Shown: positions 89 to 53,745 of the stretch, piece after piece
How the letters are laid out: each line of letters opens with the position of its first letter
How positions within the stretch are numbered: position 1 is the first letter of the stretch
Virus record (IMG/VR): IMGVR_UViG_3300045110_000277
Location: 22,080 to 86,079 of that record
Strand: one strand, 5' to 3'
From: a virus
DNA length: 64,000 nucleotides
Notes under the pieces: generated by a model
What the model was told of the DNA's origin: nothing
What the model saw: only the letters and a program-made list of their open reading frames with translations
Databases searched by the model: none
Made by a program: the position numbers and the translations under genes

Positions 89-328
89 ATGAGCGGCGAG
101 GAACGTGAGTTCGACCCGGATGACCCGTCCAAGATCATGCGGGTGTACCTGAGCAAGGTCGAGAACGGCGTGGAGTCCACCGCCGAGATCTCCGTCCCGG
201 GCCCCTACCACCCCGAGATCCTCGAAGACCTGTGCCGCAAGGCGCTGATCACCCTGGGCGGCATCTTCTCCGAGGAGGAGACCGCCGACTACCTCCAGGA
301 GATGTTCGACGAAGATCCGGCGCCCTAG
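89..328 (+). CDS. Small acidic hypothetical protein
   Basis: GGAGG RBS, GC3-rich codons. Confidence 0.7.
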   Translation: MSGEEREFDPDDPSKIMRVYLSKVENGVESTAEISVPGPYHPEILEDLCRKALITLGGIFSEEETADYLQEMFDEDPAP

Positions 329-338
329 CCGCCGAAGA
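312..338 (+). promoter_or_regulatory. Candidate sigma28/WhiG-type late promoter
   Basis: AAGA-N15-GCCGAAGA upstream of ORF 390. Confidence 0.5.
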
Positions 339-994: not shown

Positions 995-1021
995 CAGATA
1001 CCCCACCCCTGCAGCCGATGA
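995..1021 (+). promoter_or_regulatory. Candidate sigma28/WhiG-type late promoter
   Basis: CAGA-N15-GCCGATGA upstream of ORF 1054. Confidence 0.55.
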
Positions 1022-4528: not shown

Positions 4529-4555
4529 CAGATGACCCTTCCGCCGAGCCGATAG
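4529..4555 (+). promoter_or_regulatory. Candidate sigma28/WhiG-type late promoter (possibly leaderless)
   Basis: CAGA-N15-GCCGATAG, 7 nt before ATG 4563. Confidence 0.6.
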
Positions 4556-5465: not shown

Positions 5466-7355
5466 GTGGCCTTCGGCGGCGATAGCGCCTTCTCCGAGTA
5501 CCCGTTCGCCGCACAGGCGGCCGGGCAGCAGCTCACGCGCACCACTTCTGACGACGCGACGGTCAGCGACTCGGTGGCGCGCTCTGTGGTCCTCGCGCGC
5601 ACTACGTCGGACGCGGTGGGCTCCATCGCGGCCGTTCCAGCCAACGCGACGATCATCATGGGCGCGGCTGGCTGGATTACCAGCGGCACCGGCAACAGCC
5701 ACCCCATCGTGATGACCATTCCGGCCGGGGCCCGGGTCAACGACCGGGTGTACATGGCGTTCGGCGAGAACGGTGGCGTCGCCATTCCCGTTCCGACCGG
5801 GTGGCGGCCGATCCTGGTTCCCGCTGCGTACAACGGCAACATCCTCAGCTGCGCCATCTTCGAGCGGGACGCGCTGCTCGGGGTGGGCGAGGCTGGCTCC
5901 ACGGTCACCGTCGACATCGGCCAGAGCCGGGTGCAGATCGGCGTGATCTTCACCAGCGACGGCGACCTGGACGCGGTGAGCGCGGTCAGCAACCAGACCT
6001 CGCTGCAGTCCACGAACACGGTGCCCGCGGTCACCCCGGTCACTGACAACGCGCTGCTGCTGGAGATCGCGTTCCTGGTCTCCACCACGAACGCCCAGAC
6101 GTACACGAGCACGCCACCGACCGGCTACAGCACGCTGTTCGACCAATGCACCTCGAACGCGGGCGCGAACAAGAACATCGAGATCTTCATCGCCAGCAAG
6201 CAGCTGTCCGGCCAGAAGACGATCTCGCAGGGTCCGACCTTCTCCACCCCGTCGGTGCAGACAGAATCGGTGGTGGTGTCGCTGACGTTGACCCAGGCCG
6301 CCAAGGAGCGGGCGGTCGCCAACGTCGGCCGGTTCGCCTCGACCAGCGACAACGCCACGGTCAGCGAGACGGCGGTGCGCTCCGCCGAGGTGTACGCCCG
6401 CACGACCGCCGACAGCGTGCCCGTCAGCGAGAGCCTGGCCCGTACTGCACAGGTGTTCAGCCGCACCACGAGTGACTCGGTGGTGGTCTCCGAGGCGCTG
6501 TCCAGCCACGTCACGGTGGCCCGCACCACGGCCGACTCCGTGGTGGTCAGCGAGGCCGCGGTCCGCTCCGCTGACAACTACTCGCGCACGGCCTCCGAGA
6601 CTGCCACGGTCTCCGAGACGGTTGCCCGGTCGCTGCTGCAGGCTCGCGCCCCGTCGGACGCCGTGTCCGTCTCGGACACCACCACCCGCGTGGTCGCCCA
6701 GTCCCGTACTACCTCGGACAACGCCACGGTCTCCGACGTGGCCTCCGGCGTCATCGGCGGCAACCTGCACCTCACGCGCACCGCGTCGGACTCGATCAGC
6801 ACCAGCGAGTCGGTGGCCCGGATCGTCGTCCTGCCCCGCGCGGTGGCCGCTTCGGTGCCCGTCAGCGAGAGCCTGGCCCGCACCGCGCAGGTCTTCGCCC
6901 GGTCCACCTCGGACAGCGTGGCCGTCGTCGAGTCGGCGACCCGCTCGGCCGAGGTCTTCGCTCGCACGAGCTCGGACAGCGTGCCGGTCTCGGATGCCAA
7001 CGCTCGTTCGCAGCATGACTTCAGGTCGACTGGGGAGTCGGTCCCGGTCAGTGAGGCGGCGACTCGGGCTTCCCAGGCGTTCGCCCGGACGACGGCCGAC
7101 ACCGCCGTGGGAGCCGCCTCGGTCTCCTCGCACACCGCCGCGTCGCGCACCACGTCGGACTCGTTCGCGGTCGGCACCAGCACGCCCACCCCGGTGTACG
7201 TGCCGTCCATCAAGGATCCGGAGATCGAGGAGGCCGGCGCCCTGGTTGGCGTCACCACCACGGGCGTGGTGCTCGGCGTGACCACCACGAGCGTGCTGCT
7301 CGCATCGCCCACGCTCGGCGCCGATATCGACCCCATCGACACGATGACTCGCTGA
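5466..7355 (+). CDS. Repeat-containing fibre/stalk protein
   Basis: About 16 copies of a ~19-aa RTTSDSVxVSExxxR repeat around a globular insert. Confidence 0.75.
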   Translation: MAFGGDSAFSEYPFAAQAAGQQLTRTTSDDATVSDSVARSVVLARTTSDAVGSIAAVPANATIIMGAAGWITSGTGNSHPIVMTIPAGARVNDRVYMAFGENGGVAIPVPTGWRPILVPAAYNGNILSCAIFERDALLGVGEAGSTVTVDIGQSRVQIGVIFTSDGDLDAVSAVSNQTSLQSTNTVPAVTPVTDNALLLEIAFLVSTTNAQTYTSTPPTGYSTLFDQCTSNAGANKNIEIFIASKQLSGQKTISQGPTFSTPSVQTESVVVSLTLTQAAKERAVANVGRFASTSDNATVSETAVRSAEVYARTTADSVPVSESLARTAQVFSRTTSDSVVVSEALSSHVTVARTTADSVVVSEAAVRSADNYSRTASETATVSETVARSLLQARAPSDAVSVSDTTTRVVAQSRTTSDNATVSDVASGVIGGNLHLTRTASDSISTSESVARIVVLPRAVAASVPVSESLARTAQVFARSTSDSVAVVESATRSAEVFARTSSDSVPVSDANARSQHDFRSTGESVPVSEAATRASQAFARTTADTAVGAASVSSHTAASRTTSDSFAVGTSTPTPVYVPSIKDPEIEEAGALVGVTTTGVVLGVTTTSVLLASPTLGADIDPIDTMTR

Positions 7356-7747: not shown

Positions 7748-7774
7748 CAGTTCCCTGCCGTCCCGAGCCGATGA
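7748..7774 (+). promoter_or_regulatory. Candidate sigma28/WhiG-type late promoter (possibly leaderless)
   Basis: CAGT-N15-GCCGATGA, 7 nt before ATG 7782. Confidence 0.6.
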
Positions 7775-10452: not shown

Positions 10453-10479
10453 AAGTTCGATCCCCGACTCCGCCGAAAC
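10453..10479 (+). promoter_or_regulatory. Candidate sigma28/WhiG-type late promoter for the major tail gene
   Basis: AAGT-N15-GCCGAAAC then AAGGAGG RBS. Confidence 0.55.
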
Positions 10480-13371: not shown

Positions 13372-13419
13372 CGGAGCAGACGCCAACGACCGTTGGCACC
13401 GAGACGAGGAGGTGACTGG

Positions 13420-27540: not shown

Positions 27541-27968
27541 CTCACATCGTGGACAATCTTGAGCCCGAGTCTGGGTCCATTTGAGCGTAGACGGGCTGCC
27601 AACGCTCGTTGACATAGGTACTTTGGGCTAGGACCTTGCGCTCTGTCGGACCCTGTGGTTAGAGTCCGGGTCACTCGTTCGGCCGGTTCGCATCCCCCGT
27701 CGTTCCGGCTGGATGGGGCTCCTCCCGGGAGAGCGGGTCTCGCTTCACCCCGGGAGGGGCATCAACTTCACAGGTCGGTGACGACCACCAGGCACGCGGC
27801 AAGAGCCGGTGCGTGGGCCATCCCCGAGAAGACTCGGAGGGCGGCGATCAAGGTAGGGCTTCGGCCCTGTCCTGGTCGTCGCCCTTTGCGTTACTCGGGA
27901 GCGGCCATGCACACGCTCGGCGTCATTGCGTTCGTCATCACATGCCTGTTCATTGCGGCCCTCGCGCT

Positions 27969-30699: not shown

Positions 30700-32139
30700 A
30701 TGCTGTTGATCAAGACGACCGGCATCGAGGACTACCTCGATGGCGGCGAGGGTCGGGTGAAGGCTCTGATCCAGGGCCAGCCCGGCTCGGGCAAGACGCG
30801 CTCGGCGTCGTTCTGGCCCAAGCCGCTGCTGCTCGACTGCGAGGACGGCCGCATGTCGGTCGCTGACCGGGGCATCGACTACGCCCGGATCGAGTCCTCG
30901 GAGGACATGAAGGCCGCGCTGAAGCTGGCGTGGATGGAGACCCAGAAGCCGGTCGAGGAGCGGCGCTGGATGACCCTGATCATCGACACGCTGGACTCGT
31001 ACCAGCGGATCGTGATCCAGGAGCGGCTCAAGGTCACCGGCAACGAGGGCCTGTCGGGCTGGGCGGACTGGGGCTACCTCGACGGGAAGATGCAGACGCT
31101 CGTCAGCGCGCTCCAGGCGCTGCGCATGAACGTCGTCGTCAACCTCCACGTCAAGGAGACCAAGGTCGGCGAGGACGAGGAGGGCAAGGGCGGCTACCTC
31201 GTCCAGGGCCCGAAGCTGAAGGGCGACCTGCGCGAGCAGATCGGTGCCGAGTTCGACCTGGTGGGCCACATGGGCACCACCTTCGAGAGCAACGGCGAGG
31301 AGCGCACGCAGGTCCGAGGCGTCCAGTGGCACGCCACGCCGGATCGGCCGGGCCTGAAGGACCGCTCGGGCACGTTGCCGAAGTGGACCCCGGTCACCTT
31401 CACCGACGACGACTACTACGGGCTGTTCTCCCGGCTGATCGAGAAGGCTGAGACGCTCCAGGAGTCCCGGGTGGTGCAGGAGGTCGAGACCGAGGCGCTG
31501 CCTCAGCCGGTGGGCCCGATGGCCGGGGGCCCGGTGGCGGCCAAGAAGGCTGCGGCTGCTCCGCCGGCGAAGAAGGCCGCAGCGGCACAGGTGCCAACGC
31601 CCGTTGACACCCCGCCCGCAGCTGCAGCTGTGCCGGCGGCACCTGCAGCTCGGGCTGTTCCGGCTGCAGCCAAGCCGGTCATCGGTGGCGCGAGTTCTGC
31701 GCCAGCCGCTGCACCCGTCGAGGCCCCAGCAGTTGTGGCCGAACCGGTGGCGGAGCCCCAGCCTGAGCCTGAGCCGACGGTCGAGGAAGCCGTCGCAACG
31801 GTGGAGGAGGCGCTCGGAGGCACGGTTATCTCCGAGCCCGCACCTGCCGATGGGCCAACGGTGACACCTGCCGAGGCACCTGCTGCCCCGGCCCCGGTCG
31901 CACCGGCTGCTGAGTCCACCGACTTCCCCGCCTGCGGTCAGGGCCGGGACGCCGACGTGGAGAACCCCGTACCCGGCTGCGGCAAGGTGCTGCGGATCGG
32001 CAAGGGACCTGACGGGTCGCTCGTCATCGACGACCCCGACGAGAACCCGGACCTCATCGAGATCGCCGGGCTGAAGACGCGGACGTGGCTGTGCAACAGC
32101 GACTTCGCTACCTACCGCGCCAACGCGAAGAAGGGCTGA
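30700..32139 (+). CDS. Sak4-like (AAA_24) recombination ATPase with long C-terminal extension
   Basis: GQPGSGKT, PKPLLLDCEDG, IIDTLD, LKDRSG. Confidence 0.85.
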   Translation: MLLIKTTGIEDYLDGGEGRVKALIQGQPGSGKTRSASFWPKPLLLDCEDGRMSVADRGIDYARIESSEDMKAALKLAWMETQKPVEERRWMTLIIDTLDSYQRIVIQERLKVTGNEGLSGWADWGYLDGKMQTLVSALQALRMNVVVNLHVKETKVGEDEEGKGGYLVQGPKLKGDLREQIGAEFDLVGHMGTTFESNGEERTQVRGVQWHATPDRPGLKDRSGTLPKWTPVTFTDDDYYGLFSRLIEKAETLQESRVVQEVETEALPQPVGPMAGGPVAAKKAAAAPPAKKAAAAQVPTPVDTPPAAAAVPAAPAARAVPAAAKPVIGGASSAPAAAPVEAPAVVAEPVAEPQPEPEPTVEEAVATVEEALGGTVISEPAPADGPTVTPAEAPAAPAPVAPAAESTDFPACGQGRDADVENPVPGCGKVLRIGKGPDGSLVIDDPDENPDLIEIAGLKTRTWLCNSDFATYRANAKKG

Positions 32140-32714: not shown

Positions 32715-34622
32715 GTGTTCGTGGAAGACGCCATCGCCTATCTCGCCAGCAAGGCCATCCGTGTGGCCCGCGGTCCTGGTGAGGAGGTCATCGTCCACTG
32801 TCTGTTCTGCCCGGACGGTGACCCCAAGGGCAAGGGCAAGATGTACGTCAACGCCGACACCTGGCTGTACGACTGCAAGCGGTGCGGCACTCGGGGCAAC
32901 CGCAAGACCCTCATGCGCCACTTCGGCGACGAGGACGTGGTGGAGTACATGCCGGGGCTGAACCCGGCGATGCGGCGCAAGGCTCTGTCGGAGGCCACCG
33001 ACATCGCAGCCGAGATGCTGCTGGAGAACCAGCCGATCCTGGACCAGCTCAAGGCCCGCGGCCTGTCCATGCGAACCATCGTTGACGCCCGGCTGGGCTA
33101 CGTGCCCACCGGCTGGAGCCTGTGCGGCTCGTTGAAGTCGACGAACGTGGTCGCCGACCTGATCGCCTCGGGCCTGATGACCGAGAAGGGCCAGGACTTC
33201 CTGGCCAACCGGATCACCATCCCGTACCAGTCGCACGGCGACGTGGTGCAGCTCCGGGGCAAGGACCCACAGCCTGGCGGCAAGTACCTGACGCCCACGG
33301 GTGACGCGGTGCGGCTATACAACGCCGACCGGCTCCAGGACGCGCTCGACGTGATCATCGTGGAGGGGGAGTTCGATGCGCTCGTCCTCCAGCAACACCT
33401 CCAGCTGAGTGGCGACTCGAAGCTGATGGCGACAGCGGTCGTTGGCATCCCTGGCGCTGAAGCACTTCCGACGGGCTTCCTCTCCTACTTCGAGGGCGCC
33501 CGTCGGGTGTACGTGGCGCTGGACCCCGACGACACGGGGATGCGGGCGGCGATCCGCATCAAGGACCTGCTGGGTAGCAAGGCCCGTATCGTCCACCTGC
33601 CCGAGGACCTGCCCAAGTGCGACTGGTCAGAGTTCTTCTCGGCCCGGGGCAAGACCTGGCGTGACGTGGTGCCGCTGCTGGCTGCTGCTGACTCCGAGGG
33701 CCGCAGGCTGTGGACCATCGGTGACGCGGAGACCTCGTGGCGCTACGTCGAGGACGAGGTGGGCGGCGTCAAGCTGGGCTTCCCAGAGCTGGACGACTGG
33801 ATGGACCCAGGCATGAAGCCGGGCCAGGTGTTGATCCCGCTGGCGAAGACGGGCGTTGGCAAGACCAACTTCCTGTGCAACGTGGCCTGGTACACCCGCA
33901 CCCGCCCGCTGCTGTACGTCACGTTGGAGATGACGCGCGCCGAGATCTACGAGCGGCTGCGGCGCATCGCGTTCTTCTGGAACCCGCTCTACACCGACGA
34001 GCAGATCCGCGAGGAGTTCAAGCTCCTGCGCATCGTGGACCAGAACAGGCTCAAGGAGGGCGACCTGGCCCGGCTGTGCGAGGAGTACGCCGAGGAGGTC
34101 GGCATCGCCCCGCAGCTGGCGTTCGTGGACTACCTGGGCTACTACGCCAAGGGCGTCAAGGGCACCGGGCTGTACGAGAAGACCACCAACGCGGCGATGA
34201 GCTTGAAGGAGGACGCCAAGGGTGCGTTCGTCTCGCTGATCACCCCGCACCAGGTGAACCGTTCGGCGGACGACGGCAAGCCGCTGGACATGGACGACGC
34301 GCGTGACTCCGGTGCGGTCGAGGAGACGGCCGACATGATCATCAGCCTGTACGCGCCGGCGGACTCGGTGAAGGCGGTCGACGGGCGCCCCACGTCAGCG
34401 ACCGTTCGCACCCAGATCCTGAAGAACCGCAACGGGCCCAAGGGGATGGCGGCGTCGTTCACGTTCAGCAACGCCTCGCTGGTGCTGGTCCCGGCGAACA
34501 CTCCAGCCGCACAGCTCTGCGAGGAGGAGAACCGGATGATCTGGCGCGGTGCCAAGTACCCGGAGGTCCGGGCCTTCCGTCGTGGCGGCGAGCACGCCGA
34601 CCGACAGCTGCGGCTGGCGTGA
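32715..34622 (+). CDS. DNA primase-helicase (Zn finger, TOPRIM, SF4 helicase)
   Basis: CLFC/CKRC, EGEFD, DPDDTG, AKTGVGKT, VDYLG, LKNRNG. Confidence 0.92.
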   Translation: MFVEDAIAYLASKAIRVARGPGEEVIVHCLFCPDGDPKGKGKMYVNADTWLYDCKRCGTRGNRKTLMRHFGDEDVVEYMPGLNPAMRRKALSEATDIAAEMLLENQPILDQLKARGLSMRTIVDARLGYVPTGWSLCGSLKSTNVVADLIASGLMTEKGQDFLANRITIPYQSHGDVVQLRGKDPQPGGKYLTPTGDAVRLYNADRLQDALDVIIVEGEFDALVLQQHLQLSGDSKLMATAVVGIPGAEALPTGFLSYFEGARRVYVALDPDDTGMRAAIRIKDLLGSKARIVHLPEDLPKCDWSEFFSARGKTWRDVVPLLAAADSEGRRLWTIGDAETSWRYVEDEVGGVKLGFPELDDWMDPGMKPGQVLIPLAKTGVGKTNFLCNVAWYTRTRPLLYVTLEMTRAEIYERLRRIAFFWNPLYTDEQIREEFKLLRIVDQNRLKEGDLARLCEEYAEEVGIAPQLAFVDYLGYYAKGVKGTGLYEKTTNAAMSLKEDAKGAFVSLITPHQVNRSADDGKPLDMDDARDSGAVEETADMIISLYAPADSVKAVDGRPTSATVRTQILKNRNGPKGMAASFTFSNASLVLVPANTPAAQLCEEENRMIWRGAKYPEVRAFRRGGEHADRQLRLA

Positions 34623-34623
34623 C

Positions 34624-34851
34624 ATGGCCTACGTCCGGCCGCCGACGCCCGTTGGCACCGCACCCACAGAGCGGGAGATCGAGGTCGCCCAGCTCGTAGC
34701 GATGGGCCACAGCAACAAGGTGATCGGCAAGCGGTTGTACCTGTCCGAGGACACCGTGAAGACCCACCTGCGGCACCTGTCCGCACGGCTGGGCACCAAG
34801 AGCAGGGCGCACACGGTGATGGTGCTGCTGCGACGGGGGCTGATCCGGTGA
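34624..34851 (+). CDS. Stand-alone LuxR HTH, BldM-like DNA-binding domain
   Basis: TEREIEV...GHSNKVIGKRLYLSEDTVKTH...RAHTV...RGLIR; no receiver domain. Confidence 0.8.
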   Translation: MAYVRPPTPVGTAPTEREIEVAQLVAMGHSNKVIGKRLYLSEDTVKTHLRHLSARLGTKSRAHTVMVLLRRGLIR

Positions 34852-35063
34852 GAGCCTCGCTGATCGAGAAGCCGCTGACGGCCCGGGAGATCGAGGTCAT
34901 CCAGCTGATCGCGGACGGCCATGGCAACCGGGAGGTCGCCGAGCGGCTGCACTTGTCCCCGCTGACGATCAAGAGCCACCTGGCCCGCATCGCGTTCAAG
35001 CTGGGCAACGGCTCGCGCGCAGCCCAGGTCGCCATCGCTTGGCGGAGGGGGCTGCTGCGATGA
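34848..35063 (+). CDS. Stand-alone LuxR HTH, WhiI-like DNA-binding domain
   Basis: LTAREIEV...LSPLTIKSHLARIAFKLG..SRAAQVAIA; no receiver domain. Confidence 0.8.
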   Translation: MRASLIEKPLTAREIEVIQLIADGHGNREVAERLHLSPLTIKSHLARIAFKLGNGSRAAQVAIAWRRGLLR

Positions 35064-35527
35064 ACGACTACACCCGTTGGCAGCACCACGACCCGACGAC
35101 CCACGGCGAGCTGTACGACATGCTCCGCTGGATGTTCGGGCTCGGCTCGTGGGATGAGGTCACCGCCGAGGAGCCGTACTTCAAGGCGCGCGGCACCGAG
35201 ATGGGCAAGCTGAAGCGGACGATGACCGCCCGCCAGGTGGGCATCCCCGAGGCCGTGCTGGCCGCCCGGTACTGCTACCGGCACCGCATCCCGGTGCTGT
35301 GGACCACGGAGATCTTCAAGCACCTGGCTGCTGCGCGCCGCGAGGCCGCTGAGTTCGCCCGCGGTGACATCCAGCGGGAGATGGAGGCCGCCATCAGGTG
35401 CGAACGCTCGTTGGCACGTGCTTCGAGCGACGACTGGGTGAGCCGGCTGACCCGGGCCCAGGGCGACTACCGAAGGGAGGTGCTCGACTCATGGCGGCTC
35501 AGCCAGCAGACGCAGGCGGTGTCCTGA
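35060..35527 (+). CDS. Hypothetical protein
   Basis: ATGA-coupled; codon bias. Confidence 0.7.
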   Translation: MNDYTRWQHHDPTTHGELYDMLRWMFGLGSWDEVTAEEPYFKARGTEMGKLKRTMTARQVGIPEAVLAARYCYRHRIPVLWTTEIFKHLAAARREAAEFARGDIQREMEAAIRCERSLARASSDDWVSRLTRAQGDYRREVLDSWRLSQQTQAVS

Positions 35528-37142
35528 TCCCGTTCCCGGGCCCGGAGCGCACGTGCTTCGTGTGCCCCCACCACGAGGACACGACAGACGAGGACAACGG
35601 GCTGGCGTCGTGGTGCTCCGCATGGGAGCAGCCCATCGACAGCGAGACGTACGAGGCAGAGGACTGCTCCCTGTTCGAGATCGACCGAGAGAAGGTGCTC
35701 CCGATATGAGAGCGAAACTGCTCGACCCGACAGAGCACTACCCGATCCCGATCATGCACCGCCAGCGGTTCCGGGGCTCCGGCATCACGCTGGGCTGCAC
35801 CCACGCGGACTGCCGCTGGGTGCTGGACCGGCAGCTCATCCTGGGCGAGGACCTGAAGGAGCTGTTCGCCCTGTTCCACCCGCACGAGCCAACGGACGTT
35901 CGCAACGTGGGCATCCTCGGACATCCAGGGGCCGCCGACGGCCTGGACCTGCCGCAGCGCAGCGAGGACGCGCCGATCCCGTACGAGCCGGTGGTCATCG
36001 AGCAGCCGGTGGTCACGGTGCGTGAGCCGTTCGTCGAGGCGGTCGAGGCGCTGAACGACCGGTACCCAGCGAAGAAGCAGAAGACCGCGAAGGCCCCGTG
36101 TCACAACGACCGTTGCAGCCTGGGCTACAACCATCTCGGCCGCTGCGACGCCAGCACGACCAAGGTTAGCGACTGCCCGTGTCCAGCGACGATGCGGTAC
36201 TCGCTTCGGAAGATCTACTACCCGGAGTGCCCGGTGCATGGGGCCGACTCGTGAGCGCCGAGCGGTGCGAGAAGACGGACCTGCTCGTGGACCAGTGTGG
36301 CTGCGACATCCACCGGCCGCCCGTCAACGTGCCCTTCATGGCCCGCTACCCGGGCTACTGCTACACGTGCGACAAGCCGTTCGTGGCTGGCGACAAGATC
36401 CGCGAGAACGAGCTGGGCCAGTACGCCCATGCGAGCCACCGATGACCCGCGCTGGGGTCAGCGACATCATCCTCGGCGTCCTGCTCGTGGCCGGTGTCGT
36501 CTGGGTGTGGCGGGACGCGACCAGGGAAGCCCGTGAGCACAAGTTCGTGGAGGAGGTGGAGGCATGGCGACGCACGTACAGCCAGGGGTGACCCCGAGCA
36601 TGATCCACGAGTGGCGGACCAGCGTGATGGCGGTCGGCCCCGAGCACTACGAGGTCACCTGGTGCATCCGGCACGGCGAGGTGGCCAAGACGGCGATCTT
36701 GGTGGCGAGTCACCCGATCCTGGCGGGCTACCGGTGAAGCTCCTGTGCTGGCTGCTGCGCGGCCACGACTACAAGCTGCGGTGGGCCCTCATGGAGATCC
36801 GCTGCACCCGCTGCGGGGCCAAGCTCTGATGCCAGCAAAGCAAACGCTGGAGACCCGGCGTGTCCCGACGTTCCACGCCCACGGTTGCTGCAACTGTGGC
36901 CGTAGGTACCAGGACGCCTGCGCGACACCCCTGCACAACGGCCATTGCAACACCTGCTCTCTGGGGCACCCGCCCTCGCTCACGGACAACAACTACCTGC
37001 CCAAAGCCTGCTGCCGAGTGGCCAGCCGCCTGATGACGACGGTCGATGACCACAAGCGGTGGGCCCTGGGTGGCGAGGGGCCCTGGTACCGCTGCTTCAC
37101 CTGCTCACGCACGCACCCGTTCAACCCAGCCGAGAGGAAGCC

Positions 37143-37613
37143 ATGAGTGCCCAGCCCGAGGAGGTCGCGGCCGCCCTGGCTTCGGTCCCGACCGACCCGT
37201 TCCAGCCCGTCGTCGTCCCGACGATCCCAGCCCCGGCTGTCGCCGGCGCCCCAGTCGCGGCACCTCCCGTGGCGCCAACGCCCGCTGCCATCCCCACGGC
37301 CGCAGCTGCCCTCCCGACTTTCGAGGGCGCCAAGGTCGAGCGGGTCGCGCTCAAGATCAGCGGCGCGGCGACCGTGGAGATGTACGACCGGCAGCTTCCC
37401 AACGCTGACCCGCGTGATGTGCAGGGCCTGGTGTCCCTGGACGACCGGGTACGCCTGGTCGGGGACTACCGCGTCGTCGGCGTCCACTTCGTGGTGGACC
37501 CCAAGACGGGTGACGCCGTGCGGATGCAGATCTTGAAGCCGCTGGAGCTGGAGATCTGCCCGTGGGACCCGTCCGACCCGACGGACACGGGGATCGTGCG
37601 AGCCCGGCCATGA
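37143..37613 (+). CDS. Hypothetical protein, Pro/Ala-rich N-terminus
   Basis: GAGGAA RBS; codon bias. Confidence 0.7.
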   Translation: MSAQPEEVAAALASVPTDPFQPVVVPTIPAPAVAGAPVAAPPVAPTPAAIPTAAAALPTFEGAKVERVALKISGAATVEMYDRQLPNADPRDVQGLVSLDDRVRLVGDYRVVGVHFVVDPKTGDAVRMQILKPLELEICPWDPSDPTDTGIVRARP

Positions 37614-37809
37614 CGCCGGAGGGCGTCCGCAGCAAGGAGAACGCGCGAACGCTCGTTCGTGAGGCAGCCGTGGAGCTGGAGCTGGCCATCCACTACGCCG
37701 AGCGGCACCCGTCAGACCCGTCCGGGTCGCATGACCTGGACTACCGCCAGGACAACTTCGGTGAGGCGCTCGACTGCTACGTGCGCTTCGTGACGCAGGG
37801 AGTAACCAC

Positions 37810-38139
37810 GTGAGCAACGCCCGGCACGCCCACCCGCTCGGCCCAGGGGTCGAGGCGGCCATCGCCCAGGCTGAGGCCCAGCAGAAGAACGCGGACGTGA
37901 TGGCCCAGCTGCCCGAGATGGTCCGACCGCAGCCGTACCCGAAGGCCATCGGTATCGGCATCGAGGAGTGGGGCGGCGAACGAGTGTTCGCACTCCAGGT
38001 CTTCTCAGCTCACGGGATCCGGGTGCTGCACTTCACCCCGGACGAGTGGGACGGGCTCAACCAACAGGTGCAGGCCCGCATGGTCGAGTGCCGTACCGGC
38101 CTGCAGGTCGCGCACGGCGGCATCCCGCTGCTCGGCTGA
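37810..38139 (+). CDS. Hypothetical protein
   Basis: GGGAG RBS. Confidence 0.65.
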   Translation: MSNARHAHPLGPGVEAAIAQAEAQQKNADVMAQLPEMVRPQPYPKAIGIGIEEWGGERVFALQVFSAHGIRVLHFTPDEWDGLNQQVQARMVECRTGLQVAHGGIPLLG

Positions 38140-38396
38140 TGAACCGGGCGGACATCCTGGCCGAGGCGGCTCGTCTGACCACCGAGGACCGGGACAAGGA
38201 CTACGGGGACCCGCTGACCAACCACAAGCGGATCGCCAAGCTGTGGTCGGTGGTGCTGGGGCACAAGGTGACCCCGGCCCAGGTGGCGCTGTGCATGGTG
38301 CAGGTCAAGGTGGCCCGGCTGATCGTGACGCCTGACCACACCGACAGCAACGTGGACGGCGCCGCGTACCTGGCCATCGCAGGGGAGATCGTCTGA
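38139..38396 (+). CDS. DUF6378-like protein
   Basis: ILxEAxxL...DRxxDYGDP..NH.RIA.LWS...VALCM...KVARL...DSxVDGAAY. Confidence 0.8.
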   Translation: MNRADILAEAARLTTEDRDKDYGDPLTNHKRIAKLWSVVLGHKVTPAQVALCMVQVKVARLIVTPDHTDSNVDGAAYLAIAGEIV

Positions 38397-39127
38397 TGGC
38401 CAAGGTGATCGCCGGGGTCTGCGACGAGTGCGGTGCCGCGGCGCCTCACCCGCAGGTCCACGAGGGCTGGCACGCACAGCTGGAGCGGCTCCTTCGGGTG
38501 CCAACGAGCGTTGGCGCCAAGGTTGCGCCAGATCTCGCCGGCGGGATGCGGTCCGGCTTCGGCCAGGGCAGGTACCCGATCCCGCAGGAGGAGCACGAGG
38601 TACCGACCGACTTCATCGCCCCGCACCCGACCGAGCCCGCTCGGGCACCGTTCGAGGACAGCAGCCCGGAGGGCATCCACGCCGCACAGGAGGCGCTCGC
38701 GCACCTGGCACCGCGGGGCGAGGGGATGGACCGGTGAGCCCGATGGGCAGGGACCGCGCTCTGTGCAACGGCCCCGGGTGCGACAGGACGTACCGCGTGG
38801 CGGCCCGCCCAGGCCCCGACCCGCTGCACCACTTCTGCTCGCAGGAGTGCCTCGACCGGTACAACGCGCTGTACAAGCGGAAGGTGCTGCGGTGAGCCAG
38901 GTGATCCGGTCCATCTTCTTCGGCGATGGGCTCGTCGAGATCGTCTACATGGACCTGCCAGCGGACGTTCGCGCCAACGGCACCCTGGCCCAGTCGCACA
39001 CGCTGTCCATCGACACCGAGCACGGGGACTACGACACCGAGCGGGAGGCCGTGGAGGAGGCCGCGCTCGCCTTGCTGCGGGACGCGCTGGAGGACTTCCA
39101 CGCCCCGCCCGCCGTCTTGCCTGGGGA

Positions 39128-39592
39128 GTGATCGTGTCTACCGAGTTGGAGACCGAGACCGTCCGATACCTCCGTGGGGAGGTGGACGCTGTGGCCGAGA
39201 AGCTCGTGGACATCACGATCAGGTGCGCGAAGTGCTTGAAGGCCGGGCAGTACGCGCCCACGGGCGTTCGCGTCACGGTGCTCAGCAACCTGGGCTGCTA
39301 CTACGAGTTCTTCTGCCAGTCCACAGCCTGCCGGGCCTACAACAAGGCGTGGCTGGACCTGGAGCCGGCGACGAAGCTGCACGACGCCGGGGTGCCAACG
39401 AGGGTCATCGACGTGCCCGCTGAGGTCGGCGAGCACCCGCACCCGGACGCCCCCGGCCTGTCCGAAGACGACTTGCACGTGTTCCTGCGGTACCTCAAGC
39501 ACATCGAGGACGTTGCGGAGGGGGAAGCTGATGAAGCTGGAGCGGTTCATCGAGTGCCTCGAAAGCATCGGCGAGCGGACCCGAAAGGCTGA
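39128..39592 (+). CDS. Hypothetical Cys-containing protein
   Basis: CxxC and CxxxxC motifs. Confidence 0.6.
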   Translation: MIVSTELETETVRYLRGEVDAVAEKLVDITIRCAKCLKAGQYAPTGVRVTVLSNLGCYYEFFCQSTACRAYNKAWLDLEPATKLHDAGVPTRVIDVPAEVGEHPHPDAPGLSEDDLHVFLRYLKHIEDVAEGEADEAGAVHRVPRKHRRADPKG

Positions 39593-39876
39593 CGAGGCCG
39601 ATGAGTAGGTGCGTCCACGTCTGGCTGGGTCACATCTGCCTGGCGTGCGGCGCGTGGGACGGCAAGGACATGGAGGGCAGCTCTGAAGAACCTGCCGGCG
39701 GCCCAGGTGGCTGACCTAGACGCCAACGACCGTTCGCAGGGGCCGACATGCCTGGAGGTGTTGGTCTTCAGGGCTGGCGAGGTCTTCCCGGAGGACCACG
39801 GCGACATCGTGATCGGCTGCGATCTGCTCATCGACGGGCACGTGGAGCACGCGGGCGACGGCTGGAGGTGGACCGG

Positions 39877-40251
39877 GTGAGTCACCTGCGCCTGGTCCAG
39901 CCGTACTCGAAGGACGAGCAGACCGGCGACGGTGACGCTCAAGCAGAGACGAAGGCGGTGCCAGCGGCCGTTCGTGCCGCGGTGCTGGAGCGAGATGGCC
40001 ACAGCTGCCGGGTATGCGGGTCGTACGCGAAGGAGCCCGCGGTCCACCACATCAGCTACCGCTCGGAGGGCGGGCTGCACGTGGTGGAGAACCTGGTCAC
40101 GGTCCACTGGATGTACGAGCCCCGGTGCCACGAGAGGGCACACGCAGACAAGGGCCTGTGGCAGCCGCTGCTGGCCGAGGTCGTGAAGCACGACGGGATG
40201 ACCGCCATGGGCCTGCTGAGGCGCTACCGGGCAGCACAGGGGTGCTCGTGA
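39877..40251 (+). CDS. HNH endonuclease
   Basis: RAAVLERDGHSCRVCG...HHISYRSEGG...NL...CHERAH. Confidence 0.85.
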   Translation: MSHLRLVQPYSKDEQTGDGDAQAETKAVPAAVRAAVLERDGHSCRVCGSYAKEPAVHHISYRSEGGLHVVENLVTVHWMYEPRCHERAHADKGLWQPLLAEVVKHDGMTAMGLLRRYRAAQGCS

Positions 40252-40632
40252 CGTACCGCGAGCCTCCCGAGGGCTGGTTGCAGTTCGGCACGCACGCCGT
40301 GCTGCCCATCGTCCCGCCGCTGCTGTTCAGCGAGGAGCGGGATGAGGTGGGAGATCCGCTCTGGGAACGGGCGTTGACACCCAAGGATGTCGCCGACTTC
40401 CTCTGGAGCATCGGCCACGTGACCTCGTTCACCGCCGTGCGCGACCACTACAAGCTGAAGTGGACCTCGTGAGCCGGCACGCGCGGGACGCCAGCGACCA
40501 TCCGTACGCGGAGGCGTTGGAGTGCCTCGACGAGCTGACCCAGATGCTGCTGGACACCGCGCGGGACGTGGAGTGGGCCAGGCAGGGCGGCTGTTACCCG
40601 TGGGAGTACCCGAAGCCTGGAGGTAGGCACGC

Positions 40633-41379
40633 ATGACAGACCTGGCCGAGACGTGGGCCGAGTACGGAGCCACCCGCAGCCCGGTGGCGAGGGACGCCCT
40701 GATCTTGGCGTACCGCCCGCTGGTCAGGTACGTGGCGGCCCGGCTGGCCCAGGGCCTGCCAGCGTCCGTTGAGGTCCAGGATCTCGCCAGCTACGGGGTC
40801 TTCGGGCTGATCGACGCCATCGAGAAGTACGAGATCGGGCGGGTGAAGTTCGAGACGTACGCGATCCAGCGGATCCGAGGAGCCATCCTCGACGAGCTTC
40901 GAGCCCTGGACTGGGCGCCAAGGTCCGTTCGCAGCAAGGCTCGTGCCATCGAGCGTGAGCTCAGCCGGCTGGAGCACGAGCTCGGGCGCACCCCGTCGGA
41001 GGAGGAGCTGGCAACGGCCGTTGGCGTTTCGGCGCAAGACCTGCGCCGCAGCTTGAGCCAGCTCCGCCTGGCCCAGACGGACAGCCTGGACCGCAGCGTG
41101 GCCGGGCCGGACGACACGGGCTCGACGCTGGCCGACCGGGTGGAGGACCGTTCGGACATCACGTTGACTCCGCAGATGGAGGAGGCCGGACGCCTGCTTT
41201 CTGAGGGTATTGCTCGACTTCCGGACCGCGAACGCACGTTCATGGCCCTGTACTACTTCGAGGGCCTGACGCTGGCGGACATCGGCGTCACCCTGCGGGT
41301 CTCGGAGTCGCGGGTCTGCCAGCTCCATACCCGGGCGGCGGTGGCGCTCCAGCGGATCCTCGCTGGGCAACTGGTCTGA
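40633..41379 (+). CDS. whiG: FliA/WhiG-family RNA polymerase sigma factor
   Basis: GVFGLIDAIEK, KFETYAxxRIRGAIxDELRALDWxPRSVR, LYYFEGLTLADIG...SESRVCQLHT. Confidence 0.9.
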   Translation: MTDLAETWAEYGATRSPVARDALILAYRPLVRYVAARLAQGLPASVEVQDLASYGVFGLIDAIEKYEIGRVKFETYAIQRIRGAILDELRALDWAPRSVRSKARAIERELSRLEHELGRTPSEEELATAVGVSAQDLRRSLSQLRLAQTDSLDRSVAGPDDTGSTLADRVEDRSDITLTPQMEEAGRLLSEGIARLPDRERTFMALYYFEGLTLADIGVTLRVSESRVCQLHTRAAVALQRILAGQLV

Positions 41380-41444
41380 GTTCATCGCCCGTTTGGCCGA
41401 TGACCCTGGCGTTGACTCGGGCCACCCGTATGAGGGGGCAAGCC

Positions 41445-41693: not shown

Positions 41694-42721
41694 TGGACCT
41701 CACCCCGGAAGCGATGGCGGCCCGGCAGCTGATCGCGGAGCTGCGCACGGCGCTCGTTGGCACCCAGCGGGAGCTGCGCAAGCAGAAGGACCGCACCGAC
41801 CTGCTGGTCGAGGCCGTGATCCAGGGCTGCCGCGAGGCCATCCTCGCTCAAGGCCCGCTGCCAACGGTCGTTCGCACCAAGACGGCTCGCCGACCTGCAG
41901 CTGCCGGCAAGCCGGAGGTCGCGCTCTGGGCGCTGACCGACTGGCAGGGCTACAAGGTCACCCCGTCGTACGACAGCGCGGTCATGCGCGAGCGCGTGAT
42001 GCTGTACTGCGACAAGGCCGAGGCCATCACGAACATCCAGCGCAACGACCACCCGGTGGACGAGTGCGTGGTCACGTTCGGCGGCGACATGGTGGAGGGG
42101 CTGTTCAACTTCCCGAGCCAGGTCCACGAGATTGAGGCCACCCTGTTCACGCAGTACGTCGGGGTGTCCAGGCTGATCGTGGACACGGTGCGCAGGGCGC
42201 TGGCGATCTACGACAAGGTGACCGTGGTCGCGGAGTGGGGCAACCATGGGCGCATCGGCAGCAAGCGGGATGCGGTCCCGCGCAGCGACAACGTGGACCG
42301 CATGTGCTACGAGCTTGCCCGGCAGCTACTGGACGGCGAGCCGAGGCTGGTGTGGCAGGACTGCCCGGAGGACATCCAGCGCATCGAGGTCGGGAACTAC
42401 CGGGCGCTGCTCATCCACGGTGACGAGATCGGGCGCAACGGCTTCGCCTCGCCAATGACCATTGTCGCCCATTGCAACCGCTGGAGGAGCGGGGCGTACC
42501 CGTGGGACTTCCGCGACGTGTACGTGGGTCACTACCACACGCACGCCGAGTGGCCCATGGCCAACGGCCTGGGCTCGGTCTACCAAACGGGCAGCACGGA
42601 GTCGGAGAACAGGTACGCCGGGGTGATGCTGGCCGCGCAGGCGATCCCGTCGCAGCGGCTGCACTTCATCGACCCGGAGCGGGGCAGAGTCACCGCTGGG
42701 TACAAGGTCTGGCTGGCGTAG
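41693..42721 (+). CDS. Calcineurin-like metallophosphoesterase
   Basis: TDWQ, GGDMVEG, GNHG, IHGD, GHYH. Confidence 0.85.
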   Translation: MDLTPEAMAARQLIAELRTALVGTQRELRKQKDRTDLLVEAVIQGCREAILAQGPLPTVVRTKTARRPAAAGKPEVALWALTDWQGYKVTPSYDSAVMRERVMLYCDKAEAITNIQRNDHPVDECVVTFGGDMVEGLFNFPSQVHEIEATLFTQYVGVSRLIVDTVRRALAIYDKVTVVAEWGNHGRIGSKRDAVPRSDNVDRMCYELARQLLDGEPRLVWQDCPEDIQRIEVGNYRALLIHGDEIGRNGFASPMTIVAHCNRWRSGAYPWDFRDVYVGHYHTHAEWPMANGLGSVYQTGSTESENRYAGVMLAAQAIPSQRLHFIDPERGRVTAGYKVWLA

Positions 42722-53298: not shown

Positions 53299-53745
53299 TC
53301 ACGGCTGCGTCGCCAGCAGGGTCCAGGAGCACTCGCTGTTGACGCTCAGCTTCACCAGCCCGGCGCTGCCCTGCGTGGTGTCCTTGCCGGCCTTGCCCAG
53401 CTCATTGGCCAGGATGTTGAAGTTGTCGCCCTCGTCGGTGACGATGAAGTTGCCGGACCCGCCGAACGCCTTGCAGTTGTACGTGTAGTGCAGCGTCCAG
53501 TCGTCGGTCGCGGTGAACGACTTGAGGTTCTTGATCCCGTTGCCGTGGACCGACAGCAGGTTCACGATCTTGGTCGCCGGGACGATGGACGTGGCCGGGG
53601 TGCTGGCCTGGGTGCTGGCCGGCGTTGGTGCGTCGACCGGTGAACTGGCCGGGATCGGAGCGCCGGTTGGCGCCGAGGCGACCGTGCAGCCGGTGATGCC
53701 AACGAGCGTTGACACGACCACCGCTGCGAGCTTGAGCTTGTGCAT
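53299..53745 (-). CDS. Lipoprotein
   Basis: MHKLKLAAVVVSTLVGITGC lipobox; Pro/Thr linker. Confidence 0.8.
   Translation of the reverse strand: MHKLKLAAVVVSTLVGITGCTVASAPTGAPIPASSPVDAPTPASTQASTPATSIVPATKIVNLLSVHGNGIKNLKSFTATDDWTLHYTYNCKAFGGSGNFIVTDEGDNFNILANELGKAGKDTTQGSAGLVKLSVNSECSWTLLATQP

What the first reader, a model, noticed from the sequence alone, without database searches (positions are those of the whole stretch)
34624..41379. Phage-borne sporulation circuit: sigma-WhiG plus tandem receiver-less BldM-like and WhiI-like regulators
Seen: two overlapping ~72-75 aa LuxR-HTH-only genes directly after the primase-helicase, and a full FliA/WhiG sigma about 5.6 kb downstream. HTH1 (LSEDTVKTH...RAHTV...RGLIR) matches what I recall of the Streptomyces BldM C-terminus (LSEDTVKTH...DRAHAV...WGLVR). 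HTH2 (LSPLTIKSHLARIAFKLG..SRAAQVAIA) matches WhiI (LSALTVKSHLARIARKLG..DRAGMVAVA). Established: WhiG transcribes whiI, and BldM-WhiI heterodimers activate late sporulation genes; bldM and whiI are unlinked in Streptomyces. Inference: the phage captured both partners, dropped their receiver domains and co-expresses them, either to force or to block sporulation (for example to favour entrapment in spores) or to run its own late programme. This parallels sporulation sigmas and Spo0A effector domains in Bacillota phages; I know of no actinophage description of it.
Basis: partly seen in the sequence, partly recalled or inferred. Interest (0 to 1): 0.92.

Follow-up and report, generated by a model that had tools for sequence, protein, structure and literature searches.

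The report
Phage WhiG-type sigma and WhiI/BldM-like regulators
An uncultured soil actinophage carries a WhiG-family sigma factor that most likely runs its own late genes, plus an accessory pair of receiver-less regulators resembling the host developmental regulators BldM and WhiI, which may let it interfere with host development.

Summary
Two translationally coupled GerE/LuxR-only genes (75 and 71 aa) follow the primase-helicase, and a FliA/WhiG-family sigma lies 5.6 kb downstream, on an 86-kb soil viral contig.

The single "captured circuit" reading holds only in part.
- **Sigma.** It is a core gene of this phage group: relatives at 37-44% identity have it without the HTH pair. Nine sigma28-type promoters (0.22 expected) sit mostly in front of virion genes, so it is most likely the phage's late sigma. 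It lacks Gly61 and Lys57, two of the three c-di-GMP contacts; all 41 WhiG-type rows keep Gly61. It may therefore escape the anti-sigma RsiG.
- **HTH2.** It falls robustly in the WhiI clade (support 96/94), with 14 of 17 recognition-helix residues identical.
- **HTH1.** Its best cellular matches are BldM orthologues (18 of 20 in an unbiased search; helix 12-13 of 17), but its tree position is weak (89/39).
- **The pair.** It is accessory: a syntenic relative has unrelated small ORFs in that slot. BldM and BldM-WhiI boxes are not enriched in the window.
- **Host.** Unknown, so "sporulation" is inferred.

I found no cultured actinophage with these genes, and no paper describing them in the searches I ran.

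The parts
32715..34622 (+). Primase-helicase, first gene of the coupled run
   Evidence: Pfam DnaB_C 1.4e-20, Toprim_2 and Toprim_4 about 1e-06. 57% identical homologue in related phage G305.
34624..34851 (+). HTH1: 75-aa receiver-less GerE/LuxR protein, BldM-like recognition helix
   Evidence: GerE 56.4 bits. Best hit in 3 of 3 Streptomyces genomes is BldM (55.5-56.3 bits, 52-53%). 18 of 20 best hits in 151 Actinomycetes genomes are BldM-type. Helix identity 12-13 of 17. Tree placement weak. An 81% homologue, P0006, has the same short N-terminus.
34848..35063 (+). HTH2: 71-aa receiver-less GerE/LuxR protein of the WhiI clade
   Evidence: GerE 56.0 bits. Best hit is WhiI in 3 of 3 Streptomyces genomes (61-61.5 bits) and in 5 of 5 other genomes. 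Clade support 96/83 and 96/94. Helix identity 14 of 17 to Streptomyces WhiI. Start overlaps the HTH1 stop.
35060..35527 (+). 155-aa gene of unknown function, coupled to HTH2 (ATGA); marks the far side of the variable slot
   Evidence: No Pfam or PHROG hit. 35% homologue in G305 directly after two unrelated small ORFs.
40633..41379 (+). WhiG/FliA-family sigma factor, probable late sigma of the phage
   Evidence: TIGR02479 229.6 bits (over cut-off); WhiG equivalog 274.5 (under 343). Best PDB match is WhiG 6pfv at 228.9 bits against FliA at 152. Inside the WhiG family against SigB/F-like outgroups (100), on a very long branch. R-A-R at WhiG K57/G61/R62. Homologues in phages G305 and G309 and loci L203 and L204.
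313..337 (+). Sigma28-type promoter candidate (AGAT-N14-GCCGAAG)
   Evidence: One of 9 matches against 0.22 expected.
996..1020 (+). Sigma28-type promoter candidate (AGAT-N14-GCCGATG)
   Evidence: followed by GGGAGG and an ATG.
4530..4554 (+). Sigma28-type promoter candidate (AGAT-N14-GCCGATA); ATG 7 nt after the -10 octamer
7749..7773 (+). Sigma28-type promoter candidate (AGTT-N14-GCCGATG); ATG 7 nt after the -10 octamer
10454..10478 (+). Sigma28-type promoter candidate (AGTT-N14-GCCGAAA) 20 nt before the 552-aa virion-module gene
41379..41402 (+). Sigma28-type motif directly after the sigma gene; its -10 overlaps the next ATG, so its function is doubtful

Best explanation
Two things of different standing sit side by side.

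**(1) The sigma.** It is this phage lineage's own late-gene sigma factor, descended from the actinobacterial WhiG/sigma28 family. It is made from the early/middle leftward-to-rightward gene block. It directs RNA polymerase to promoters of the form AG(A/T)T-N13/14-GCCGA(A/T)R in front of virion and lysis-side genes. Because it has Ala at WhiG Gly61 and Arg at Lys57, and the phage encodes no RsiG, it probably cannot be held by the host's c-di-GMP-armed anti-sigma. Because the -10 element is the WhiG one, it could also fire host WhiG promoters such as whiI and whiH (inferred).

**(2) HTH1 and HTH2.** They are an accessory, co-translated pair of receiver-less NarL/GerE output domains. HTH2 derives from the WhiI lineage. 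HTH1 is closest to BldM. Their recognition helices differ from each other as those of BldM and WhiI do. Most likely they bind as a heterodimer, needing no signal, to host 7-2-7 sites of the BldM-WhiI type. There they would override or jam the host's late developmental switch.

**Shown:** gene anatomy, family placement, promoter enrichment, presence and absence in relatives.
**Inferred:** heterodimer formation, host targets, direction of the effect, RsiG escape.

The confidence given is for the whole statement. Taken alone, part (1), the late-sigma role, is about 0.7, and part (2), host-directed action of the pair, about 0.4.
For: **Sigma**
- Family tests.
- Homologues at 37-44% identity in four other viral records, one of them complete with terminal repeats and sharing terminase, portal and mini-LexA.
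- 9 promoter matches, all on the + strand, against 0.22 +/- 0.48 in 200 shuffles (maximum 2). Eight lie at genome 4.8-33 kb, where the virion genes are.
- 5 of 15 GCCGA[AT]A sites have a good start 10-60 nt downstream, against a 5.5% background (P = 1e-3).
- The GCCGAT element is kept at the same place before the homologous gene in 4 of 4 related phages.
- R-A-R at the c-di-GMP contact sites, against K-G-R in 35 of 35 WhiG-type rows. Six further rows keep Gly-Arg, five with Lys and one with Arg at position 57.
- The published statement that any side chain at Gly61 clashes (section 6 of bioRxiv 10.64898/2026.01.14.699351).
- No RsiG motif in any of the six frames.

**HTH pair**
- Coupling.
- WhiI clade at 96/83 and 96/94.
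- Unbiased phmmer over 1.84 billion representatives: the 11 single-stretch matches that I fetched from the 150 listed are all WhiI-like, 9 with the exact motif used for the tree label.
- BldM is the best Streptomyces hit, and 18 of 20 best hits across 151 genomes are BldM-type.
- Helix identities: 12-13 of 17 (HTH1-BldM), 14 of 17 (HTH2-WhiI), 7 of 17 (HTH1-HTH2).
- The slot is filled by unrelated ORFs in syntenic G305.
- No BldM-type boxes are enriched in the window, which points away from phage targets of that specificity.
Against: - No experiment, and the host is unknown (source is a soil metagenome).
- HTH1's clade is weak: 45/0 in the full tree and 89/39 in the reduced tree. The AU test does not reject HTH1+HTH2 as sisters (p = 0.069). 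Ordinary NarL regulators are 52-55% identical to HTH1.
- Outside the recognition helix the two HTHs are closer to each other (24 of 44) than to BldM (20 of 44) or WhiI (17 of 44) (derived). This fits a duplication with later divergence as well as it fits two captures.
- A 108-aa receiver-less protein (P0010) is HTH1's nearest neighbour, so receiver loss may predate the phage.
- The strict published WhiG2 consensus is not enriched: 1 exact match against 1.64 expected. The phage -35 differs from TAAA, so cross-reading of host promoters is uncertain.
- The promoter pattern was written after looking at this genome.
- G305's sigma keeps Gly61, so loss of that contact is not a lineage-wide trait.
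Confidence: 0.4

Rival explanations
1. Sigma, HTH1 and HTH2 were captured together as one host sporulation module (WhiG -> WhiI + BldM). They act jointly on the host to force or block sporulation.
For: All three have their best cellular matches in that one Streptomyces pathway. WhiG-type promoters precede whiI in 3 of 3 Streptomyces loci and in 3 of 5 other loci examined. The sigma lacks the c-di-GMP contact Gly.
Against: Sigma-bearing relatives lack the pair: 0 of 5 records carry it (G305, G309, G310, G311, G312). G309 has only a weak partial GerE match of 24.4 bits. The sigma is equidistant (47-54%) from 176 cellular WhiGs and sits on a very long branch, so it is not a recent capture. It has its own promoter set before virion genes. 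No sigma28-type -10 lies within 400 nt upstream of HTH1, so the WhiG-to-whiI wiring is not copied.
Confidence: 0.12
2. HTH1 and HTH2 are ordinary phage transcription regulators for the phage's own early-to-middle switch or lysogeny control. Their likeness to BldM and WhiI reflects shared ancestry in the NarL family, with no host target.
For: They sit in the early replication operon. PHROGs holds phage families of GerE-only proteins: phrog_3282 scores 1.4e-09 and 8.3e-14. Other viral contigs carry receiver-less GerE proteins, one with three in 3 kb. HTH1's placement is weak.
Against: No candidate operator for them was found. The one abundant palindrome also occurs in relatives without any GerE gene (0 of 5 records), and it travels with a mini-LexA. 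The pair is missing from a syntenic relative, which is unusual for a core switch. HTH2's recognition helix is 14 of 17 identical to WhiI.
Confidence: 0.28
3. The pair acts as a dominant-negative. Each receiver-less domain pairs with the host partner (HTH2 with BldM, HTH1 with WhiI) or simply occupies the sites. This keeps late development off, so that hyphae stay permissive.
For: Same sequence evidence as the main reading. In addition, infection of S. venezuelae by phage Alderaan coincides with down-regulation of almost all whi genes and bldM (passages of PMC10117723).
Against: From my own knowledge, not tested here: isolated output domains of this family often activate on their own. Nothing in the sequence tells activation from blocking.
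Confidence: 0.2

Closest known systems
[quoted passage not shown]
   Same: Same family: 228.9 bits, about 50% identity over residues 2-244. Regions 2-4 are present. The -10 element of the candidate phage promoters is GCCGA(T/A), as in the WhiG consensus. Three of five sigma-4 RsiG contacts are kept (L, E, L).
   Different: It lacks the first ~25 residues of WhiG. It scores under the equivalog cut-off. It has Arg, Ala, Arg at K57, G61, R62, and Ala and Phe at T235 and Y239. It is phage-borne, on a long branch. The -35 is AG(A/T)T rather than TAAA.
WhiI (atypical response regulator, Streptomyces; PMC4125116)
   Same: The HTH2 output domain lies in the same clade (96/94). Recognition helix is 14 of 17 identical; the whole domain is 31 of 61.
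   Different: No receiver domain at all. It is not behind a WhiG-type promoter. It is closer (58-67%) to WhiI-like proteins of uncultured Actinomycetota than to Streptomyces WhiI (52%).
BldM (orphan response regulator, Streptomyces; PMC4125116)
   Same: Best Streptomyces match of HTH1. Shares SEDTVKTH and 12 of 17 helix residues, and 32-36 of 61 over the domain.
   Different: No receiver domain. Clade membership is unresolved. Ordinary NarL regulators are equally similar.
Phage-encoded sporulation-type sigma factors of Bacillota phages (Schwartz et al., bioRxiv 10.1101/2021.11.12.468384)
   Same: A phage carries a homologue of a host development sigma.
   Different: Those are SigF/SigG/SigK-like sigmas in Bacillota phages. 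In the passages I read, the paper reports only a few sigK-like genes for Actinobacteria phages and has no occurrence of WhiG or FliA. Here the sigma also appears to be the late sigma itself.
GerE of Bacillus subtilis (PDB 1fse)
   Same: A stand-alone ~74-aa LuxR-type HTH acting without a receiver. Both phage proteins match it (36.2 and 28.1 bits).
   Different: GerE is a single cellular gene acting as a homodimer. Here there are two different, coupled genes on a phage.

Membership tests
FliA/WhiG sigma family | Scores over the curated cut-off of NCBIfam TIGR02479 | tested here: met
   229.6 bits against a cut-off of 189.6.
WhiG proper (NCBIfam equivalog NF004935) | Scores over the equivalog cut-off | tested here: not met
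   274.5-274.8 bits against 343.
WhiG2 (RsiG/c-di-GMP-controlled clade) | Conserved c-di-GMP contacts Lys57, Gly61, Arg62 | tested here: not met
   The phage has Arg, Ala, Arg. K-G-R in 35 of 35 WhiG-type rows. Six more rows keep Gly-Arg: five with Lys, one with Arg at 57.
WhiG2 (RsiG/c-di-GMP-controlled clade) | Physical binding to RsiG-c-di-GMP | not testable with these tools
   Needs a two-hybrid or pull-down assay. No multimer modelling is available here.
Sigma28-type promoter use | Cognate promoters with a GCCGA -10 and a spaced -35 in front of target genes | tested here: met
   9 matches against 0.22 expected. The element is conserved before a homologous gene in 4 of 4 phages. That this sigma reads them is inferred.
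GerE/LuxR C-terminal HTH (PF00196) | Scores over the Pfam gathering cut-off | tested here: met
   56.4 and 56.0 bits against 23.5.
WhiI | Output domain inside the WhiI clade | tested here: met
   HTH2: 96/83 (87 rows) and 96/94 (62 rows).
WhiI | Degenerate receiver domain | tested here: not met
   HTH2 is 71 aa with the GerE domain at residues 9-62.
WhiI | Transcribed from a WhiG-dependent promoter | tested here: not met
   No GCCGA(A/T) element within 400 nt upstream of HTH1. The genes are coupled to the primase-helicase.
BldM | Output domain inside the BldM clade | tested here: inconclusive
   Support 45/0 in the full tree and 89/39 in the reduced tree. AU test p = 0.42 for the joint clade.
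BldM | Receiver domain, and the whiD-bldM-sigma-guaB neighbourhood | tested here: not met
   HTH1 is 75 aa and follows a phage primase-helicase.
BldM-WhiI heterodimer | The two proteins bind each other and the site TGnnCCGnnCGGGTGA | not testable with these tools
   Only counted in the window: 21 matches against 18.9 expected, no enrichment.

The most novel reading that the evidence does not exclude
A soil actinophage by-passes both checkpoints of late actinomycete development at once. It makes a WhiG-type sigma that the c-di-GMP-armed anti-sigma RsiG cannot hold. It also makes a signal-independent, receiver-less BldM-WhiI-type heterodimer. Together these let it switch the host's late developmental regulon on or off at will while using the same sigma for its own virion genes.
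Probability: 0.2. Interest if true: 0.85.

Novelty: new variant of a known kind. Interest (0 to 1): 0.6.

Why it matters
Phage-encoded sporulation sigmas are described for Bacillota phages, and WhiB-like regulators for actinophages. I found no description of WhiG-, WhiI- or BldM-type genes on an actinophage (paper searches). None of 50,697 deposited phage records holds a close copy.

If the pair acts on host sites, it gives a natural, minimal, receiver-free version of the only well-studied response-regulator heterodimer. The sigma would be a natural RsiG-blind WhiG. Both can be tested directly in Streptomyces venezuelae.

Even on the sober reading, a WhiG-derived late sigma with a readable promoter set is a useful handle on transcription in an uncultured phage group.

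Tried and rejected
**Negative or uninformative searches**
- Nucleotide searches against deposited phages found nothing.
- PDB sequence searches for the HTHs gave only generic NarL/GerE/VraR hits.
- The word-index search for longer relatives of HTH1 scored only 43 candidates and was uninformative.
- The list from the representative search was dominated by multi-domain proteins. I read only the single-stretch rows, fetching 11 of the 150 listed.

**Ideas tested and rejected**
- The 18-bp palindrome as the HTH operator. Rejected because related records carry it without any GerE gene (0 of 5) and a conserved mini-LexA fits better.
- The strict WhiG2 consensus T(A/C)AA-N15-17-GCCGA. One exact match against 1.64 expected. 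With up to one mismatch, 89 against 49 +/- 9, which I do not trust because shuffles ignore codon structure.

**Scans that did not find close relatives**
- The gp155 scan of viral contigs found no relative.
It returned only a full-length regulator (L207) and a large LuxR protein (L208), not the 2079-base contig.
- Sequencing runs: one soil metagenome holder, which may be the source, and one small-share rhizosphere run that I did not lay. No RNA holder is listed.

**Trees: rows dropped**
- Before the reduced tree I dropped 14 long-branch or viral rows and 12 near-duplicate BldM rows.
- Identical domains were collapsed before the first tree: 135 domains plus 20 other rows gave 87 rows.

**Not done or not possible**
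- HTH1-HTH2 dimer modelling was not possible (single chains only).
- No structure prediction was run.
- Supplements of PMC4125116 (target gene tables and the whiI promoter figure) could not be seen.

**Unpublished genomes**
- The 176-of-301 tally and the 47-54% identity range include the unpublished genomes G009, G017, G026, G032, G034, G038, G045 and G265.
- The K-G-R table includes L149 (G038) and L156 (G009).

Full report
**What is there.**
- The window is bases 22080-86079 of an 86,079-base IMG/VR virus record, CheckV 74% complete. The one full holder among sequencing runs is a soil metagenome.
- The record carries endolysin and DNA methyltransferase genes. It also has an AAA_24 ATPase and a primase-helicase, and exonuclease and clamp-loader genes.
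- The primase-helicase ends at 34622. An ATG at 34624 opens a 75-aa gene (HTH1). Its stop overlaps the GTG of a 71-aa gene (HTH2, 34848-35063). The HTH2 stop overlaps the ATG of a 155-aa gene.
- Each of the two small proteins is a GerE/LuxR domain and nothing more: 56.4 and 56.0 bits against a cut-off of 23.5.
- The 248-aa sigma at 40633-41379 has regions 2, 3 and 4. It passes the FliA_WhiG subfamily model but not the WhiG equivalog model.

**Identifying real BldM and WhiI without typing them from memory.**
- A scan of one genome per species with HTH1 gave 548 relatives.
- In the two Streptomyces loci that I opened (L081, L087) the match is the C-terminus of a response regulator. That regulator lies divergent from a whiB-like gene and is followed by a sigma gene and guaB; groEL lies upstream in L081.
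- Its output domain is identical in all six Streptomyces loci. This fits the published statement that BldM is 100% identical across streptomycetes (Introduction passages of PMC4125116).
- The best HTH2 hit in three Streptomyces genomes is a ~220-aa regulator with a degenerate receiver. It is preceded by TAAA-N16-GCCGAAG in all three. This fits what the same paper says of WhiI and its WhiG promoter.
- The two genes are on different contigs in all three draft genomes.

**HTH2.**
- WhiI is its best hit in 3 of 3 Streptomyces genomes (61-61.5 bits, 51-52%; next best 55.4-56.1).
- WhiI is also its best hit in 5 of 5 further actinomycete genomes (55-58%). Three of those loci have TCAA-N16-GCCGATGG upstream.
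- An index-free phmmer search of 1.84 billion representatives listed 150 proteins. I fetched 11 single-stretch matches from that list (55-67% identity). All carry WhiI-like recognition helices, 9 with the exact motif used as the tree label.
- The names available for these matches are uncultured Actinomycetota and a Candidatus Nanopelagicales MAG.
- In the 87-row tree of GerE domains, HTH2 and its 83% relative lie in a clade with Streptomyces WhiI at 96/83. In the 62-row tree the support is 96/94.
- Recognition-helix identity to Streptomyces WhiI is 14 of 17.

**HTH1.**
- BldM is its best hit in 3 of 3 Streptomyces genomes (55.5-56.3 bits). The margin is 7-8 bits in two genomes and 0.5 bits in the third.
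- In a search of 151 Actinomycetes genomes with no pattern bias, 20 genomes had a hit at E <= 1e-14. Of those 20 hits, 16 carry the exact BldM helix start, 2 a one-residue variant, and 2 are of another type.
- Helix identity to BldM-type proteins is 12-13 of 17.
- The tree is not decisive. Support is 45/0 in the full set and 89/39 with the BldM group in the reduced set. A 19-row clade at 94/91 also holds two ordinary NarL-type regulators.
- AU tests reject neither HTH1 with BldM (p = 0.42) nor HTH1 with HTH2 (log-likelihood 29 lower, p = 0.069).
- HTH1 and HTH2 are 51% identical overall but only 7 of 17 in the helix.

**The sigma.**
- Its best solved relative is WhiG at 228.9 bits, against FliA at 152.
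- In three Streptomyces genomes the WhiG locus scores 220-227 bits and the next sigma 79-86 bits.
- Across 301 Actinomycetes genomes, 176 have a match at E <= 1e-55, all listed ones at 47-54% identity.
- In the tree it is inside the WhiG family against SigB/F-like outgroups (100). Its end branch is 2.42 against a median of 0.045, and it is unresolved within the family.
- So it is an old, fast-evolving phage lineage of WhiG, not a recent pick-up.

**Comparative evidence that separates the sigma from the pair.**
- Viral records found through a palindrome motif turned out to be relatives of this phage. They share terminase (about 67%), portal and a 324-aa virion-module protein (76-78%). G305 also shares the primase-helicase and other replication genes.
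- G305 (52.7 kb, 63% complete) is syntenic through AAA_24, primase-helicase, the 155-aa gene and the sigma (44% identity). Between primase-helicase and the 155-aa gene it has two unrelated small ORFs, and it has no GerE domain anywhere.
- A profile of the two sigmas found further phage copies: G309 (147.7 kb, terminal repeats, 42%; it also shares mini-LexA, terminase and portal), L203 and L204 (37%).
- The GerE family search on these records found only one weak partial match, in G309 (24.4 bits).
- The pair itself recurs only as P0006 and P0009 (81% and 83%). Both are listed with a 2079-base JGI contig.

**Late promoters.**
- While looking for WhiG-type -10 elements I saw GCCGA(T/A)A with AGTT 13-14 nt upstream, directly before virion-side genes.
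- The pattern AG[AT]T-N13/14-GCCGA[AT][AG] has 9 matches, all on the + strand. Expectation is 0.22 +/- 0.48 (maximum 2) in 200 dinucleotide shuffles.
- Five of 15 GCCGA[AT]A sites have a Shine-Dalgarno-preceded start 10-60 nt downstream, against a 5.5% background (P = 1e-3).
- The GCCGAT element keeps its place before the homologous gene in four related phages while the flanks diverge.
- Earlier first-reader notes on this genome describe the same promoter set. I had found it independently, but I used their wording for the final pattern.

**Anti-sigma contacts.**
- Section 6 of bioRxiv 10.64898/2026.01.14.699351 names WhiG Lys57, Gly61 and Arg62 as c-di-GMP contacts. It states that any side chain at position 61 would clash. 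It names Thr235, Leu236, Tyr239, Glu240 and Leu242 as RsiG contacts.
- The phage sigma has Arg, Ala, Arg at the first set and Ala, Leu, Phe, Glu, Leu at the second. All 35 WhiG-type rows have Lys, Gly, Arg. Six more rows keep Gly-Arg: five with Lys, one with Arg at 57.
- G305's sigma has Arg, Gly, Arg.
- No RsiG motif occurs in any frame of the phage.
- Escape from RsiG is an inference from these residues.

**Targets of the pair.**
- The BldM box with up to 3 mismatches occurs 4 times against 8.7 expected. The BldM-WhiI box with up to 2 mismatches occurs 21 times against 18.9 expected.
- So the window is not enriched in such sites. That fits host targets, or a different specificity.

**Literature.**
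- The searches brought no paper describing WhiG, WhiI or BldM homologues on actinophages.
- In the passages I read, PMC10117723 contrasts sporulation sigmas in Firmicutes phages with WhiB-like regulators in actinophages. It also reports down-regulation of whi genes and bldM early in Alderaan infection.
- The Atacama virus preprint mentions a viral LuxR only as a quorum-sensing-type gene.
- Schwartz et al. has no occurrence of WhiG or FliA in its main text.
- Deposited phage genomes hold no actinophage match to any of the three proteins. The best sigma hits are 41-42% in unannotated gut 'Bacteriophage sp.' records. The best HTH hits are 44.6% and 46.8% in non-actinobacterial phages.

**Verdict.**
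- The gene content is real and unusual, but it is not one captured circuit.
- The sigma is best read as the phage's late sigma, with possible spill-over to host WhiG promoters and possible escape from RsiG.
- The HTH pair is an accessory, receiver-less, two-specificity set. Its WhiI ancestry is well supported and its BldM affinity is moderate.
- Host-directed mimicry is the most interesting reading that the data allow, but it is not shown.

Noticed in passing
window-wide, e.g. 6995-7012, 13381-13398, 27597-27614, 31592-31609, 35399-35416, 41859-41876, 53697-53714: An 18-bp palindrome, TGCCAACG-NN-CGTT(G/C)(G/A)CA, gives 64 strand-matches (about 37 sites) against 0.16 expected. It occurs inside genes and between them. 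The same motif recurs in related viral records (3-9 sites each), and 0 of 5 of those records has a GerE gene.
   Followed up: partly
L125:9735-10013 (genome coordinates, before the window): A 92-aa open frame that is only a LexA DNA-binding domain (Pfam 9.1e-17). It is conserved in relatives G306, G307 and G309. It is the better candidate reader of the palindrome.
   Followed up: partly
L195 (G305), primase-helicase homologue: The homologue's open frame is 1025 aa, against 635 aa here. A long insertion interrupts the DnaB-like part and looks like an intein. I ran no family search on it.
   Followed up: no
L007, L009, L010, L011 (other viral contigs): Receiver-less proteins with BldM-type helices (SEDTVKTHARR, or a close variant in L011) and unrelated N-terminal extensions of roughly 60-110 residues. 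L010 holds three GerE reading frames within 3 kb. None has the sigma or primase-helicase in the fetched flanks of up to 10 kb.
   Followed up: partly
P0010 and P0154 (database proteins): Two 108-112-aa HTH-only proteins share an N-terminal helix (MDAA.R.EIL.RY...). One has an HTH1-like domain and the other a WhiI-like domain. P0010 occurs on contigs up to 196 kb. Receiver-less forms may therefore exist outside this phage.
   Followed up: no
window 39748-40251: HNH endonuclease domain (Pfam 8e-06) in a 167-aa ORF, two genes before the sigma. It has a 44% homologue in G305.
   Followed up: no
L003 (viral contig end): The WhiG gene at the end of this 'viral' contig is almost identical to a cellular WhiG (L179, branch lengths 0.006 and 0). 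It is probably host flank of a prophage rather than a phage sigma.
   Followed up: partly
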